12,688 nt of DNA from a virus (taxonomy: Duplodnaviria > Heunggongvirae > Uroviricota > Caudoviricetes), in the IMG/VR virus record IMGVR_UViG_2675903324_000010; one strand, given 5' to 3'. Position 1 is the first letter of the stretch. Each line of letters begins with the position of its first letter. This document shows positions 9,001 to 12,688 of the stretch, one piece after another. Position numbers: made by a program.

Positions 9001-12000
9001 GAAACTTGAGGAGCGCGGTTTATGGCGACGTGCGGCGACCCGATGGTCTGACGTCCTTCTTCACGCAGAAACGGACAGGGAGCGCGAGGAAGCTGCCAGA
9101 CGTCGGGGGATATGTATCATTAAATCCCGTCGTATGCCTGAGCAGTTCGTCACCTTTGGCGATGTGAAAAAGGCCGCAGACAGAAGGCTGAAAGAGATGG
9201 GGATTAATCCGCAGGATGAATGGAAAATTACAGCTTCAGTGATGCAGGCGACGATTTAGCGCTACCGTGATACGTATCTCATCACCGTATTTGCTCAGTT
9301 ATCGCGATTCGCTATAATCACCACCGAAGAGCCGTTGATGGTGTTCGCCTCTGGCAACTGGAGCCAGACTGCATGAAGCCAGTCAGCGGCTTTTCAGCAC
9401 TCATTTTGATGTGTACTTGTCACACACATCGGGATGAGTGAATGACGAAAACATCACGGTGATTTCGTCATGCCGCGATAAGAATGTTCCCCTTTGGGCA
9501 ATTGAAGCCCTCTGTGCAGAAGGTTATCGCGGTCAGGTTGTGATAAAAACGCGCCTCTTTGAGCAATTGAAGCTCACTGTAAAGCGGCTTATCACAGCAG
9601 GCTGTAACGGGCGCTCATCTTCTGGCAACTGAAGCCACCTGTACAGAGACCCGTTACGGCTGACCCTGAATGATTTCGCCCCGTGCAATTGAAGCACCCA
9701 GCGGAGTTATTCAGGGTTTTTTATTGCCCCTCCACCAGCACCACATCTGTAGCATTGATGCGTATACATTCGCCGTCAATTGCACCATTCCGGCCCTCAC
9801 CGTCACGCACCACAACAGAATGACCAGGCAGGCCATAACGCGCCACCTTTCGACGAACACCATCACCAGCGCCCTCACGACGCTCAAACACATTAATCCG
9901 CTCAAGAAGACCATCACGCACCATAGCTTCCAGCGTGCGCCTTGTTGATTCGATCTGATACCGGCTGTTGAATGAATCCATACCATGCAGCAGGTAAGCC
10001 ACACCGGAGACATCAAACGGCGGGTTGCCAATTTCAACGCTGACCCACGCCAGATTGTCGGGAGTGAAGTAACTGAGGGTCTCTTTTTTGTATTGCGTCA
10101 GTCTCATAATGGCCTTTCTTATTGTAGGATGAGTCCCTCATACAATAAGCCATAAGGCAAATTTTGAAAGGACAGAATCGGCGAGGGCAACAGGTGATAC
10201 GTGATGACAAGGTTGAAGCGCTGGAAGCACAAGGGTTATGCGATGGGTTGCGGCAATATGAGGCAAATATGAATATTCAAATTGTTGTGTTGTGAGGTAC
10301 GCAAGATGAAAAAAATTGATTCTTTACGAATAAGTAAAGTAGCTATTATATCAGTATCTTTATTATTTCTTAGCGCGTGTTCTACAAATAATATTGAGAA
10401 TATGCCGAGAGATGCGCGTGTAAAATTTGCTCTAATGAGGGCTTATTCAGATAACAAGTTTGATAATTCAACAGTTATCGGCGAAGTGTTAGGATTGAGT
10501 TGCGCCAGACAACTTGGAAAAACATTAGTAACACCATTGCCAGGGGGAAGCGCTATTGCTACATCCTCTGAGGGCGACATTACTTCTGAGTCGGATGCAA
10601 TACAGGACATGCGATATAAAGCCGCAATGATGGGAGGTGATGCCATAGTGAACGTTGTATGTAAATCAGGTGGTGTTGACTGGATTCATAACTGTTGGTC
10701 AACTGTTAAGTGCGTTGGTGATGTAATAAAAAAATAACAGTTGCCATACTGAAGGTATTGATTAATACATGGAAACTGCAATTACGACGTGTGATTGCAG
10801 CTTACCGTTAGCTACCCCTGTTACAATTGCCCTCTTCCATCACAGCAAAATGCTACCCCCTTCACAGCCCCCTCGGAAGCCCCTCCGATGGGGTGAAAAA
10901 TCCCTGAAAAACTGCGCAAAAAACTGCGCAAATCGATCATAAAACCGATCACAAAATCGATCACACAGACCAGCAGAGAAAAGCCAGGTATGACGCGGCT
11001 TGCAGGGGGAAAGGCCACCGGAAAAAGTGAGCATTTTTCTCAAAAACGAAACGCAACAGGAAGCGCAAAACGAAACCGATACGCGATGATCGAAAAAGCG
11101 CGCAAATTTACCGGATTCGGGTAAGCAATTTTGCCTGATTTGGGCAAAATACGGTGTCGCCGTAACAGTGACATTGACACCAAAACAGTGACACACAGGA
11201 GGGCCGATGACCGAACGTTCACCAACAGAGATAATTCACGGGATTATTGAAGAGCAGGAGGAACGCGAGTTAATCCTCATGATTGAAGAGCAGAGAGAAC
11301 GCCAGCGCAAACAGGAGGCCACGCAGCCGGACAGCGTGAGCGCTGAAAATCAGGCTGATGTGACGTGATGGTGTCGAACTGAGTAACTTTAAGTAACCTT
11401 GTGACCAGTTTTAAACGAGTCGCAAAAAGAGCCGGAGAAAAACCACGAATCTGGGGTTTTTACTGGCGCGGTGTACACGGTGGAACGCATAGCGTTACCT
11501 GACTTATTGCATTGTAAAAAGTTAGAAAGGCACGGCCTGTAAGATGGGATGTTGTGAGTGGTTTAAAGCTACCCGCAAATTCTTTCGTTGTGCTGGCACA
11601 GGCGGTTAAACCGTCGGTAACTGGATAATCCCCATTGGGGGAAAAGCTGGCTACACCCCTCACATCTGAGGACTGATAACGCAAAATTGCGTTGGCTGGC
11701 AGAGTGCAAATTTGCACGATGGCCTAACCCATTGATTCTTTCGAAAACCCCCATTGGGGGAGAACGGGGGAATAAACCTGACTCATTGATTCTTCCACAA
11801 TCCTCAATTTGAGGAAGTCGGCGCGGTAACTCACTGAGATTAAAGCAAAGCTCAAATCTGAGATGGCTACATCCCTCACATCTGAGGACTGTTAACCAGC
11901 AAGCCGGAATATATTCACAAACTACGAAATTTTCGTAGTTTAACTTTCATCCAGTACATCCCCGAAAACACGGGTATGTACGGAGTTACCGTTACCAATA

Positions 12001-12688
12001 ATTATTCGCGAGGTGATTGTTGATGCGTGATATTCAGCAGGTTCTGGAACGCTGGGGAGCGTGGGCGGCAAATAATCGCGAGAATGTGACCTGGTCATCC
12101 GTTGCCGCAGGATTTAAGGGGATTATTCCGGCAAAGATAACATCACGCCCACAGTGCTGTGACGATGATGCGATGGTGATATGCGGGTGCATAGCCCGTC
12201 TTTACCGGAACAATCGCGATTTGCATGACTTGCTGGTGGATTACTACGTGCTGGGGAAAACGTTTATGGCGCTGGCACGTGAGCATGGATGCTCTGATGG
12301 ACATATCGGAAAGCGGCTACAGAAAGCGGAAGGTGTTGTTGAAGGCATGCTGATGATGCTGGATGTGAAGCTGGAGATGGATCGGTATGTTGAGCGCGAT
12401 TCAGTGACGGCATAACGCGCATAAAAAAACCGCAGCCATGAGGAAACTGCGGTGGAGAAATACGGCTTGCCAATCAATCATGAAAAACGTAATCGCCTGA
12501 TAATTATGCCACGAGACAAAGGACGGTGCACCCTGAATGGTCATAATGACCACTTAGACCATCAAGGTAACCATAACGAACATCGTTACAGTTGGAGCTT
12601 TTACCCCGTTGGGGGAAAAGGTGCATACCTGAATCATCATTATGGTGATCAAGGGCATGTAAAGCCCACCAGCCTGATTAAAGGTTAA

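What the first reader, a model, noticed from the sequence alone, without database searches (positions are those of the whole stretch)
11400..12022. 600-bp ORF-poor region upstream of Q packed with palindromes and a repeated CCCC(A/G)TTGGGGGA motif
The region contains GTGCAAATTTGCAC (11704-11717), TCCTCAATTTGAGGA (11801-11815), ACTACGAAATTTTCGTAGT (11921-11939), and two copies of a ~50-bp segment containing CCTCACATCTGAGG (11658-11671 and 11874-11887). The second copy is split by a ~95-bp insertion. The CCCCATTGGGGGA motif occurs at 11630 and 11748, and a variant at 12604 on the other side of Q. This could be a junction between the island and a prophage remnant, a set of operators, or an sRNA locus.
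Basis: seen in the sequence. Interest (0 to 1): 0.5.

Follow-up and report, generated by a model that had tools for sequence, protein, structure and literature searches.

The report
Satellite array of antirepressor-gene palindromes
The palindrome-rich stretch upstream of Q is a non-coding array, typical of the right end of E. coli phage satellites, built from repeated copies of one short palindrome-plus-IHF-site segment that normally lies inside the roi/rha antirepressor-type genes of lambdoid helper phages, so it most likely acts as a cluster of binding sites for those phage regulators.

Summary
Window 11600-11945 has 11 palindromes where 1.4 are expected (0 of 1000 shuffles), and all the stated coordinates are correct.

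The window is a PICI-type phage satellite, not an island/prophage junction. It carries int, alpA, a Rha/Ash gene with C4 RNAs, a DUF927 primase, an iteron origin, SSB, ProQ/FinO, PerC and Q.

The same array sits at the right end of many E. coli satellites, in 990 of 5426 genomes. Most of them lack Q. Only the Q coding sequence is phage-like, and Q appears to have been inserted into the array.

The array is not a tRNA, an Rfam RNA, a cos site or the origin, and it is not consistently coding.

The units are reverse-oriented copies of one short segment of phage Rha-domain genes:
- Codons 42-57 of roi, present twice.
- A HK639-type rha segment (weak match).
- An Ant-type antirepressor segment.

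The roi-type units consist of a 13-bp palindrome, a 12-bp spacer and an IHF consensus. Palindrome arms covary strongly, and the invariant positions are the IHF consensus positions.

As I recall it, HK022 Roi binds inside its own gene next to an IHF site. My best reading is therefore a multi-specific Roi/Rha + IHF binding-site array, acting as a decoy or as a gate upstream of cargo such as Q. Binding itself is untested.

The rivals are an RNA-level function and recombination debris.

The parts
11207..11368 (+). 53-aa ORF. It is a truncated homologue of the 93-aa 'last ORF' of E. coli PICIs (shared ...ATQPDSV(S/T)AEN...). In all related satellites the array follows this gene.
11438..11461 (+). 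Terminator-like hairpin AAAAACCAC-gaatct-GGGGTTTTT, with one A.G mismatch here. It is perfect in L004. It lies within a 74-nt piece (11421-11494) similar to the 3' end of KilA-N genes of HK620-like phages.
11629..11642 (.). Palindrome 'a', TCCCC-attg-GGGGA, preceded by GGTAACTGGATAAT. This looks like a degenerate roi-type unit. It is the first CCCCATTGGGGGA motif.
11645..11680 (.). Unit 'b', copy 1: TGGCTACAC-CCCTCACATCTGAGG-ACTGATAAC. It is a 36-nt direct repeat of 11861-11896.
11678..11693 (-). Palindrome 'c', AACGCAAAATTGCGTT. Read on the minus strand it corresponds to codons SQRNFA of HK639-type Rha genes (PF09669). The match is 19 nt and exact, but weak on its own (E = 4).
11704..11717 (.). 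Palindrome 'd', GTGCAAATTTGCAC (7+7). It is conserved between satellite lineages, with the only change at its centre.
11724..11771 (-). roi-type unit 1. It has a perfect IHF consensus AATCAATGGGTTA (11725-11737, minus strand), a 12-bp spacer and the 13-bp palindrome CCCCCATTGGGGG (11748-11760). On the minus strand it equals Roi residues 42-56 (RSPPMGVFERINGLG).
11778..11825 (-). roi-type unit 2. It has an IHF-like site with one mismatch and the palindrome CCTCAATTTGAGG (11802-11814). On the minus strand it reads RLPQIEDCGRINESGL, 13 of 16 residues identical to Roi of phage JLK-2012.
11830..11862 (.). Small palindromes CTCACTGAG (11830-11838) and 'f' CTCAAATCTGAG (11851-11862). At the position of 'f', the short variant (L006/L007) has CGCAAAATTGCG instead.
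11861..11896 (.). Unit 'b', copy 2: TGGCTACATC-CCTCACATCTGAGG-ACTGTTAAC.
11919..11941 (-). Palindrome 'g', AAACTACGAAA-t-TTTCGTAGTTT (11-bp arms). On the minus strand it corresponds to codons LNYENFVV of the N-terminal domain of ANT/KilAC antirepressor genes. Homology with Q-less satellites ends at 11943.
11944..12022 (+). Q leader. It is specific to Q-bearing satellites and includes the imperfect hairpin GTACATCCCCG-aaaaca-CGGGTATGTAC (11954-11981) and the Shine-Dalgarno sequence GAGGTG. No sigma-70-like promoter was detected.
12023..12415 (+). Antiterminator Q (PF06530, 130 aa). Only the CDS (12021-12399) is similar, at 85% DNA identity, to Q of Stx-converting lambdoid phages. It is cargo inserted into the array.
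12533..12688 (.). Continuation of the satellite right-end module, which in Q-less satellites lies 82 nt beyond palindrome 'g'. It holds the palindromes TGGTCATaATGACCA and TAACGAacaTCGTTA and the variant motif CCCCGTTGGGGGA (12604-12616).

Best explanation
The region is a non-coding, modular array that belongs to the right (accessory) end of a family of Escherichia/Shigella phage satellites. It is built from copies of one short segment of helper-phage antirepressor-type genes (roi, rha, ant). That segment lies just downstream of the codons for the helix-turn-helix recognition helix. In those genes it carries a 13-21-bp palindrome and, in roi, an adjacent IHF consensus.

I propose that the array works at the DNA level. 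Each unit would be a binding site for a dimeric Roi/Rha-type regulator together with host IHF. Units of different palindrome types would give one satellite sites for several regulator alleles.

The array would then do one of two things. It could soak up helper Roi/Rha proteins as a decoy. Or, placed between the satellite's rightward operon and cargo genes such as Q, it could form a Roi/IHF nucleoprotein gate that couples read-through into the cargo to the presence of a helper phage.

Shown here:
- The array is real and non-coding.
- It is satellite-specific.
- The two roi-type units are homologous to roi (significant matches), and palindrome 'g' matches Ant-type antirepressor genes (modest E-values). 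The link of 'c' to HK639-type rha rests on a 19-nt exact match with E = 4.
- Its geometry is fixed, its arms keep their dyad symmetry, and the IHF consensus positions are the invariant ones.
- Q is inserted cargo.

Inferred, not shown:
- That the palindrome is the Roi/Rha binding site.
- That IHF binds the units.
- The decoy or gate role.
For: 1. Context. The window is a satellite: int, AlpA, a Rha/Ash gene with C4/isrK RNAs, DUF927 primase, SSB, ProQ/FinO, PerC and Q. The same array follows the last ORF in 20 distinct satellite right ends. These have different integrases and att sites, different replicases and different packaging modules.

2. Homology to roi. Window 11718-11822 matches 106 phage records, at places annotated roi, DNA-binding protein Roi or anti-repressor. 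A tblastn search finds only Roi residues 42-57, twice, and no other part of the protein.

3. Other modules. Palindrome 'c' lies in HK639-type Rha genes. Palindrome 'g' lies in ANT-domain antirepressor genes.

4. Fixed geometry. Of 73 palindromic candidates, 52 sit at the same offset from the TTGAT motif. In 32 distinct units the invariant columns are the YAA-N4-TTGAT-W positions of the IHF consensus. The 13-mer is 95% paired, all 6 pairs show changes on both sides, and the covariation score is 0.546 against 0.145 in shuffles (0 of 500). Slid controls reach at most 0.10.

5. Symmetry to the centre. Complementarity extends to the pair flanking a single central base (A-T in 27 of 32 units, G-C in one). 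An RNA hairpin could not use that pair.

6. HK022. Its roi has the only perfect IHF consensus in 10.7 kb, at exactly this position and next to CCTGCATTGCAG. From memory, Clerget & Boccard 1996 (pmid 8763934, listed as ref 59 in PMC3430580) reported that Roi binds a site within its own gene, closely linked to an IHF site, and that IHF stabilises the binding.

7. A general feature of Rha genes. Of 14 distinct Rha genes, 11 have a palindrome with arms of at least 6 bp, in all checked cases 58-71 nt after the GKRH codons. Only 9 of 70 control windows do. The window's own Rha/Ash gene has TCCGTTTCAAACGGA at 2263-2277.

8. Allele classes. The recognition helix and the palindrome change together in three roi allele classes.

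9. Conservation. The a-b-c-d block is about 95% conserved between lineages whose flanks differ by about 20%. The substitutions fall mostly at palindrome centres.
Against: - No binding was tested. The exact Roi and IHF sites of the 1996 study are recalled from memory only, because the paper is not held.
- The IHF consensus positions coincide with the conserved codons I-N-x-L of Roi. Their conservation in array copies could therefore partly be inherited rather than selected.
- The association between helix and palindrome involves sequences only about 60 nt apart, so linkage alone could produce it.
- Modules a, b, d and f have no detectable gene counterpart.
- The match of 'c' to rha is only 19 nt, with E = 4.
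- All units have the same orientation, antisense to the satellite's rightward transcription. A pure dsDNA site would not require that.
- Palindrome centres vary between module types (0-4 nt), although they are constant within the roi type.
- No Roi-type gene was shown to reside in the same genomes as the matching units.
Confidence: 0.42

Rival explanations
1. RNA-level function. The array is transcribed with the satellite's rightward operon, as a 3' UTR or as the leader of Q. It would then act in one of two ways. It could be a multi-unit antisense RNA against roi/rha/ant mRNAs of helper or competing phages, possibly helped by the island's ProQ/FinO-family protein, as in FinP/traJ or P22 sar/ant. 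Or it could be a stack of stabilising or processing hairpins. A variant has the same hairpins, each followed by TTTTCG on the minus strand, acting as weak terminators against transcription entering from the right.
For: - Both strands fold far better than shuffles, with z = -5.5 and -5.0.
- All the gene-derived units are antisense to the + strand. In several lineages the array starts right after the stop codon of the last ORF, with the terminator only after the array, so it must be transcribed there.
- Antirepressor genes are classically controlled by antisense RNAs. The window itself carries two C4 RNAs and isrK and a ProQ/FinO protein.
- Arm covariation fits RNA stems as well as it fits DNA dyads.
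- Two independent variants give G.U on the + strand.
Against: - There is no Rfam match and no promoter or discrete RNA ends.
- Complementarity to known roi genes is only 80-92% over about 48 nt.
- The 13-mers have a 1-nt centre, so the innermost conserved pairs could not form in RNA. The stems that could form are only 4-5 bp.
- Wobble asymmetry is inconclusive: A.C cases also occur.
- There is no complementarity to the satellite's own genes.
- ProQ/FinO is not evident in all array-bearing satellites.
- The hairpins fail the terminator scan.
Confidence: 0.25
2. No function. The array is debris and duplications left by repeated illegitimate or short-homology recombination between the satellites' accessory end and the highly mosaic Bro/Rha/Ant genes of phages. 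The palindromes are simply inherited from the source genes, or are themselves recombination-prone joints.
For: - The right end is a known accessory-gene hotspot (PMC11364771).
- Unit order and copy number differ between lineages.
- The tail beyond Q contains further duplicated end-modules and a second fragment of the last ORF.
- The piece at 11421-11494 is a fragment of a KilA-N gene end.
- Q was inserted between units.
Against: - Only the 16-codon palindrome/IHF segment of roi is ever present, repeatedly and from several allele classes and gene families. No other part of these genes appears.
- Palindromes remain perfect in non-coding copies, and the consensus positions are the invariant ones.
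- The a-d block is conserved well above its flanks, with changes confined mostly to palindrome centres.
- The array is retained in satellites with unrelated integrases, replicases and packaging modules.
Confidence: 0.22
3. A standard cis-acting site of the satellite: replication origin, packaging (cos/pac) site, or integrase arm sites.
For: The region is non-coding, repeat-rich, contains an IHF consensus and lies near the island's end. All of these are typical of such sites.
Against: - The origin lies elsewhere. At least 15 TGGGACRAC iterons, AT-rich DNA and an IHF consensus sit at 6987-7295, directly after the primase gene.
- There is no lambda or P2 cos in the window.
- In related PICIs the lambda-type cosN lies upstream of the last ORF, not in the array.
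- attR is more than 2 kb away in the identical locus.
- The array occurs with different integrases, replicases and packaging modules.
Confidence: 0.04

Closest known systems
Intragenic Roi-binding site plus IHF site of the phage HK022 roi gene (Clerget & Boccard 1996, J Bacteriol 178:4077; recalled from memory, paper not held)
   Same: - The roi-type units are homologous to roi codons 42-57.
- They contain the same dyad element and the IHF consensus at the same spacing.
- HK022 roi carries its only IHF consensus at exactly this place.
   Different: - Here the segment is detached from the gene and non-coding.
- It is inverted relative to the neighbouring Q and present in two to four tandem copies of different palindrome types.
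- It is mixed with analogous segments of other antirepressor families.
- It sits in a satellite, not a phage.
- Binding is not shown for any of the units.
Iteron or operator sinks that titrate a DNA-binding protein (for example the P1 incA iteron array)
   Same: Clustered repeats of a protein-binding module lie outside the protein's own gene. The proposed decoy logic is the same.
   Different: The units differ from one another (multi-specific) and are each paired with an IHF consensus. The proposed target protein is encoded by another element, the helper phage. No titration has been shown.
REP/BIME elements with an IHF site (RIP/RIB elements) of the E. coli chromosome
   Same: Short palindromic units alternate with an IHF consensus in transcribed intergenic DNA, in a modular and variable arrangement.
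   Different: The sequences are unrelated. The array is not dispersed in the chromosome: it is absent from more than 80% of E. coli genomes, with a median of one place per genome. Its arms are shorter, at 5-7 bp, and it derives from phage coding sequence.
Antisense RNA control of antirepressor genes (P22 sar/ant, P1/P7 C4/icd-ant, P4 CI, Salmonella IsrK/anrP)
   Same: The array is complementary to antirepressor-type mRNAs. The same satellite carries C4-family RNAs and isrK.
   Different: There is no discrete RNA gene, no Rfam match and only imperfect complementarity. The array has multiple targets rather than one cognate target.

Membership tests
Roi/IHF intragenic site of lambdoid roi genes | Sequence homologous to the roi segment that carries the site | tested here: met
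   106 phage records at places annotated roi or anti-repressor, with E down to 5e-11. Roi residues 42-57 are found twice (11722-11766 and 11773-11820, minus strand).
Roi/IHF intragenic site of lambdoid roi genes | IHF consensus WATCAANNNNTTR next to a dyad-symmetric element at fixed spacing | tested here: met
   Unit 1 matches perfectly (11725-11737) and unit 2 has one mismatch. The geometry is a 13-mer palindrome, 12 bp, then ATCAA. It holds in 52 of 73 candidates and in HK022, JLK-2012 and Stx2-86 roi.
Roi/IHF intragenic site of lambdoid roi genes | Binding of Roi protein and of IHF | not testable with these tools
   This needs EMSA, footprinting or ChIP. The published binding data are recalled from memory only.
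Known small RNA or cis-regulatory RNA family (Rfam) | Match to a covariance model | tested here: not met
   no match in 11250-12688 even at E<5, and none in seven related loci. The C4 and isrK hits lie elsewhere (3362-4043).
tRNA or tRNA remnant cluster (as found next to Q in Stx phages) | A tRNA gene detected by ARAGORN | tested here: not met
   0 genes in the window.
REP/BIME dispersed chromosomal repeats | Many copies spread through the core chromosome of essentially all strains | tested here: not met
   present in 990 of 5426 genomes, with a median of 1 place per genome. In every locus inspected the piece lay at a satellite right end; a few rows lie inside antirepressor genes.
Lambda-type or P2-type cos site | cosN cohesive-end sequence | tested here: not met
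   nothing closer than 2 mismatches, at chance level. In related PICIs cosN lies elsewhere (L002 3620-3631).
Replication origin (iteron type) | Repeated identical iterons next to the replicase gene | tested here: not met
   the iteron origin is at 6987-7295. The array's palindromes differ from one another.
Intrinsic terminators | G+C-rich stem followed by a U tract | tested here: not met
   no array palindrome qualifies on either strand. The number of terminator-like sites equals the shuffle expectation.
Protein-coding gene | Reading frame conserved among homologues | tested here: not met
   there is a 1-nt indel in a 98%-identical locus. Units fall in different frames, with stops, in L004, L023, L063, L010 and L008.
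Antisense RNA regulators of antirepressor genes | Discrete transcript complementary to the target mRNA | tested here: inconclusive
   Complementarity is present, at 80-92% over about 48 nt. No promoter or terminator defines an RNA. Transcription was not measured.

The most novel reading that the evidence does not exclude
Phage satellites keep a small 'library' of the intragenic operator/IHF modules of their helpers' Roi/Rha/Ant regulators, one unit per allele class. This multi-specific array would sense or sequester whichever helper regulator appears. In the Q-bearing satellites of Shiga-toxin-producing E. coli, it would gate a captured Stx-phage-type Q antiterminator that could switch on helper late genes, including stx, in trans.
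Probability: 0.2. Interest if true: 0.8.

Novelty: new variant of a known kind. Interest (0 to 1): 0.6.

Why it matters
Three points stand out.

1. It uncovers a conserved cis-element inside Rha/Roi/Ant antirepressor genes. This is a palindrome at a fixed place just after the recognition-helix codons, joined in roi by an IHF site. It appears to be a general and largely unstudied feature of a very common phage gene family.

2. It shows that a family of E. coli satellites has copied exactly this element, in several allelic versions, into a tandem array at its accessory end. That points to a way for satellites to read or blunt helper-phage regulators. A decoy or sensor built from the helper's own operators would be directly testable with simple binding and titration experiments.

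3. In about 2% of complete E. coli genomes, many of them STEC, the array sits immediately upstream of a satellite-borne Q of the Stx-phage type. Its regulation could therefore bear on Shiga-toxin phage late-gene expression.

If the array turns out to be inert debris, it remains a useful marker of this satellite family's right end.

Tried and rejected
- **tRNA genes or remnants**: none found.
- **Rfam families**: none in the region or in related loci.
- **Pas/STnc100-type prophage sRNAs near Q**: a literature lead, but no model matched.
- **cos site**: no lambda or P2 cosN. In related PICIs the cos site is a separate element.
- **Origin of replication**: found elsewhere, at 6987-7295.
- **attP arm sites**: the array is too far from attR and is independent of integrase type.
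- **Coding on either strand**: the 150-codon open minus-strand frame in the window is not kept in relatives.
- **Decayed roi pseudogene**: only residues 42-57 are present.
- **Antisense to the satellite's own genes**: only chance-level matches.
- **Sigma-54 promoter, CRISPR-repeat mimic, integron attC, nut/boxB or put RNA**: considered from sequence resemblance and dropped for lack of a consistent pattern across units.
- **G.U versus A.C asymmetry to pick a transcribed strand**: inconclusive.
- **Species range**: an exact-pattern scan of one genome per species found nothing. A protein-based scan found only one Shigella locus. The element therefore seems restricted to Escherichia/Shigella.
- **Metagenome scan and two of the viral scans with 14-base patterns**: mostly chance hits.
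- **Clerget & Boccard 1996**: the paper could not be retrieved, and a text search for its key sentence failed.
- **Homologue search with the 93-aa last ORF**: only E. coli/Shigella hypothetical proteins.
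Full report
**1. The observation**

Several more exist:
- AACGCAAAATTGCGTT at 11678-11693.
- CTCAAATCTGAG at 11851-11862.
- CTCACTGAG at 11830-11838.
- An imperfect hairpin at 11954-11981.
- An 11-bp-arm extension of the 11921 palindrome, giving 11919-11941.

Window 11600-11945 holds 11 palindromes with arms of at least 5 bp and a centre of at most 4 nt. Dinucleotide shuffles give 1.4 +/- 1.2, and none of 1000 reaches 11. The median for windows of the same size elsewhere in the sequence is 1. Both strands fold far better than shuffles, with z = -5.5 and -5.0. 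The direct repeat is 36 nt at 92% identity, 11645-11680 and 11861-11896.

**2. What the window is**

The right part of the window is identical to E. coli strain 4. There the element is a roughly 13-kb island inserted at a tRNA-Gly gene next to the ETT2 cluster.

Gene content:
- An integrase.
- AlpA.
- A 580-aa Rha/Ash protein whose gene contains isrK and two C4 antisense RNA matches.
- A DUF927 primase-helicase, followed by an iteron origin.
- SSB.
- A ProQ/FinO-family protein.
- PerC.
- Small ORFs, then the non-coding region, then Q.

This is the make-up of a PICI-type phage satellite. The island's attR, a repeat of the tRNA 3' end, lies about 1.2 kb beyond Q. The finding is therefore inside the island, not at its junction.

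**3. Where else the region occurs**

- The full 650 bp is present in only 16 of 5426 complete E. coli genomes.
- Pieces of it occur in 990 genomes, typically once per genome and mostly unannotated.
- In every locus inspected the piece lay at the right end of a related satellite.
- These satellites have other integrases and insertion sites (next to phoQ, yejO or dinD, or inside a prophage head gene). They also have other replicases and other packaging modules: capsid, decoration and Rpp-like small terminase genes, and a lambda-type cos.
- In all 20 distinct right ends collected, the array follows the same small 'last ORF' in the same orientation. The window has a truncated 53-aa version at 11207-11368.
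- Scans of one genome per species found only a Shigella relative.

**4. Q is an insertion into the array**

Satellites without Q are collinear with the window up to 11943 and again from 12533. Between those points they have 82 nt where the window has 589 nt.

Only the Q coding sequence (12021-12399) resembles phage DNA. It is 85% identical to Q of Stx-converting phages. Its leader and trailer are not phage-like. Q belongs to PF06530.

The junction of palindrome 'g' with the Q leader is present in 111 of 5426 genomes. So about one array-bearing genome in nine has Q. The motif variant at 12604 belongs to the same right-end module that Q interrupts.

**5. What the array is not**

- It is not a tRNA.
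- It is not any Rfam family, even at E<5, in the window or in seven related loci.
- It is not a lambda or P2 cos site. In related PICIs cosN lies upstream of the last ORF.
- It is not the origin. At least 15 TGGGACRAC iterons, AT-rich DNA and an IHF consensus lie at 6987-7295.
- It is not integrase arm sites, given the distance to attR and the independence from integrase type.
- It is not consistently coding. A 1-nt indel separates 98%-identical loci, and units fall in different frames with stops in other lineages.
- No sigma-70-like promoter and no qualifying terminator lies within it.

**6. What the units are**

Comparison of right ends shows a recurrent unit of about 54 nt. It reads CTAACCC-N-TTGAT-(A/T)-N-TTT-CG-(A/G)-AAA-C, then a palindrome that differs from unit to unit. 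Examples:
- CCCCCATTGGGGG
- CCTCAATTTGAGG
- CCTGCAATGCAGG
- CAGCCAACGGCTG
- TTCGCCAGCGGCGAA

Read in reverse complement, this unit turns up inside intact phage genes. A search of the phage collection with window 11718-11822 hits 106 records. The places are annotated roi, DNA-binding protein Roi or anti-repressor, on the opposite strand, with E from 5e-11 to 2e-3 in the 30 best records listed.

In these phages roi lies about 1.3 kb upstream of Q in the same operon, as roi-ninG-ninH/I-Q. Roi is a Phage_pRha + ANT protein. The unit corresponds to Roi residues 42-57, just after the helix-turn-helix recognition helix.

A tblastn search of Roi against the window finds only these 16 residues, twice (11773-11820 and 11722-11766). 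Nothing else of the protein is present. The array is therefore not a decayed roi gene.

Two other palindromes behave in the same way:
- 'c' (11678-11693) equals the codons SQRNFA of HK639-type Rha genes. The match is 19 nt and exact, and weak on its own.
- 'g' (11919-11941) equals the codons LNYENFVV in the N-terminal domain of ANT-type antirepressor genes.

Modules a, b, d and f have no detectable gene counterpart.

**7. Anatomy and constraint of the roi-type unit**

- Among candidate units in all fetched DNA, 52 of the 73 with a near-perfect 13-mer palindrome have it at exactly the same offset from the TTGAT motif.
- In an ungapped alignment of 32 distinct units, the invariant columns are T2 A4 T10 G11 A12 T13 T16 T17 C19. 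The first six of these, together with the nearly invariant A3, are the specified positions of the IHF consensus read on the other strand (YAA-N4-TTGAT-W); T16, T17 and C19 lie just beyond it. The N4 columns vary.
- The 13-mer is paired in 95.3% of cells.
- All six pairs show changes on both sides.
- The covariation score is 0.546, against 0.145 in shuffles (0 of 500) and at most 0.10 when the partners are slid.
- Complementarity reaches the pair that flanks the single central base. An RNA hairpin could not use that pair.
- The window has only two perfect IHF consensus matches. One is in the array (11725-11737, minus strand) and one is in the origin.
- HK022 has a single match in its right-hand 10.7 kb. 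It lies inside roi at the unit position, next to CCTGCATTGCAG.

**8. A general feature of Rha-type genes**

Of 14 distinct genes recognised by the GKRH..V helix motif in the fetched DNA, 11 have a palindrome with arms of at least 6 bp. In the cases checked it lies 58-71 nt downstream. Only 9 of 70 control windows have one. The window's own Rha/Ash gene has TCCGTTTCAAACGGA at 2263-2277, at the equivalent place.

Three roi allele classes pair a distinct recognition helix with a distinct palindrome. The two are closely linked, so this is only weak evidence for co-evolution.

**9. Conservation**

Between satellite lineages whose flanking non-coding DNA differs by about 20% and by indels, the a-b-c-d block is about 95% identical. 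Its few substitutions fall mostly at palindrome centres. The orthologous roi-type unit has swapped its palindrome by paired changes, from CCCCCATTGGGGG to CCTGCAATGCAGG.

**10. Interpretation**

From memory, Clerget & Boccard (1996) showed three things. HK022 Roi binds a site within its own gene. That site is closely linked to an IHF site. IHF stabilises the binding. The paper is cited in PMC3430580, but I could not read it.

The following features fit this report best:
- The segment copied into the satellites is exactly the roi segment that carries a dyad element and the only IHF consensus.
- The geometry is fixed.
- The dyad and the consensus are the conserved features in non-coding copies.
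- One array holds several palindrome types.

I therefore read the array as a cluster of binding sites for Roi/Rha-type regulators plus IHF, with confidence 0.42. Whether it acts as a decoy for helper regulators or as a gate for read-through into cargo such as Q cannot be decided here.

Q has no detectable promoter of its own. It lies behind a weakened terminator (11438-11461) and the array. Read-through control is therefore plausible, but it is inferred.

**11. Rivals**

- An RNA-level role (0.25). This would be antisense to antirepressor mRNAs, perhaps with the island's ProQ/FinO protein, or a set of structural hairpins. It is favoured by the uniform antisense orientation and by the array being a 3' UTR in some lineages. 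It is weakened by the imperfect complementarity, the 1-nt centres and the lack of a discrete RNA.
- Inert recombination debris (0.22). This fits the hotspot location and the shuffled unit order. It does not fit the exclusive retention of this one segment, or the pattern of constraint.
- A standard ori, cos or att site (0.04). This is largely excluded by the results above.

**12. Novelty and verdict**

I found no description of such arrays in the satellite papers read and no model in Rfam. The element is best filed as a new variant of a known kind. It is an operator/IHF module already reported inside a phage gene, here multiplied, diversified and relocated to a satellite.

The function remains to be tested.

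Noticed in passing
window 6987-7295: Probable replication origin of the satellite. At least 15 copies of the 9-mer TGGGACAAC/TGGGACGAC occur in both orientations, partly at 21-nt and 9-nt spacing. They flank AT-rich DNA and a perfect IHF consensus (7232-7244), directly downstream of the DUF927 primase-helicase gene (4827-6968).
   Followed up: partly
window 3362-4043: isrK (3362-3441) and two C4 antisense RNA matches (3490-3577 and 3956-4043) lie inside or at the end of the 580-aa Rha/Ash ORF (2066-3808) and just beyond it. This is a P4/P1-like RNA immunity region of the 'Bro zone' described for PICIs in PMC10111431.
   Followed up: partly
window 2263-2277: The satellite's own Rha/Ash gene carries a perfect 7+1+7 palindrome, TCCGTTTCAAACGGA (codons LPFQTE). 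It sits at the position in the Rha domain where phage roi/rha genes carry theirs. This palindrome type is not represented in the array.
   Followed up: partly
window 12023-12415: A satellite-borne antiterminator Q (PF06530). Its CDS alone is 85% identical to Q of Stx1/Stx2-converting phages. The array-Q junction is present in 111 of 5426 complete E. coli genomes, many of them STEC. It could trans-activate helper late operons. No pR'/qut-like phage sequence follows it.
   Followed up: partly
window 12429-12453 (minus strand): A strong intrinsic-terminator-like hairpin followed by TTTTTTT, oriented against Q and immediately after the Q stop codon. It would stop leftward transcription from entering Q.
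   Followed up: no
window 12452-12688 (+): A 78-aa mechanical ORF with a His-rich stretch (LNGHNDHLDHQGNHNEHRYSWSFYPVGGK). That stretch is similar in Q-less satellites (L002, L023), but the frame diverges after GGK. The DNA also holds the palindromes TGGTCATaATGACCA and TAACGAacaTCGTTA. Whether it is coding or part of the array is unresolved.
   Followed up: partly
whole window; L002 3440-3660: The window has no lambda-type or P2-type cos site and no capsid or terminase genes. Related PICIs do carry AGGTCGCCGCCC (cosN) with GGATCTGA-type repeats beside an Rpp-like small terminase gene. How the Q-bearing satellite is packaged is unknown.
   Followed up: partly
L001 15300-16230 (beyond the window's end): The 1.2 kb between Q and attR contains a second fragment of the 'last ORF'. 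It also holds further copies of the end modules: ATGGTCATAATGACCAC, (C/T)TA(C/T)GAAAATTTCGTAA twice, and GTAAAGCCCACCAGC...AACCGGAAAAA twice. This suggests tandem accretion of satellite right ends at this att site.
   Followed up: no
L134 3026-4830: One array-bearing satellite is embedded in the major head gene of a lambdoid prophage. The head gene resumes about 250 bp after the array. This matches the helper-embedded PICIs of PMC10111431.
   Followed up: partly
window 11421-11494: A 74-nt piece, including the terminator-like hairpin, is 85-91% identical to the 3' end of KilA-N domain genes of HK620-, cdtI- and Stx-type phages. This is another antirepressor-family fragment at the start of the non-coding region.
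   Followed up: no
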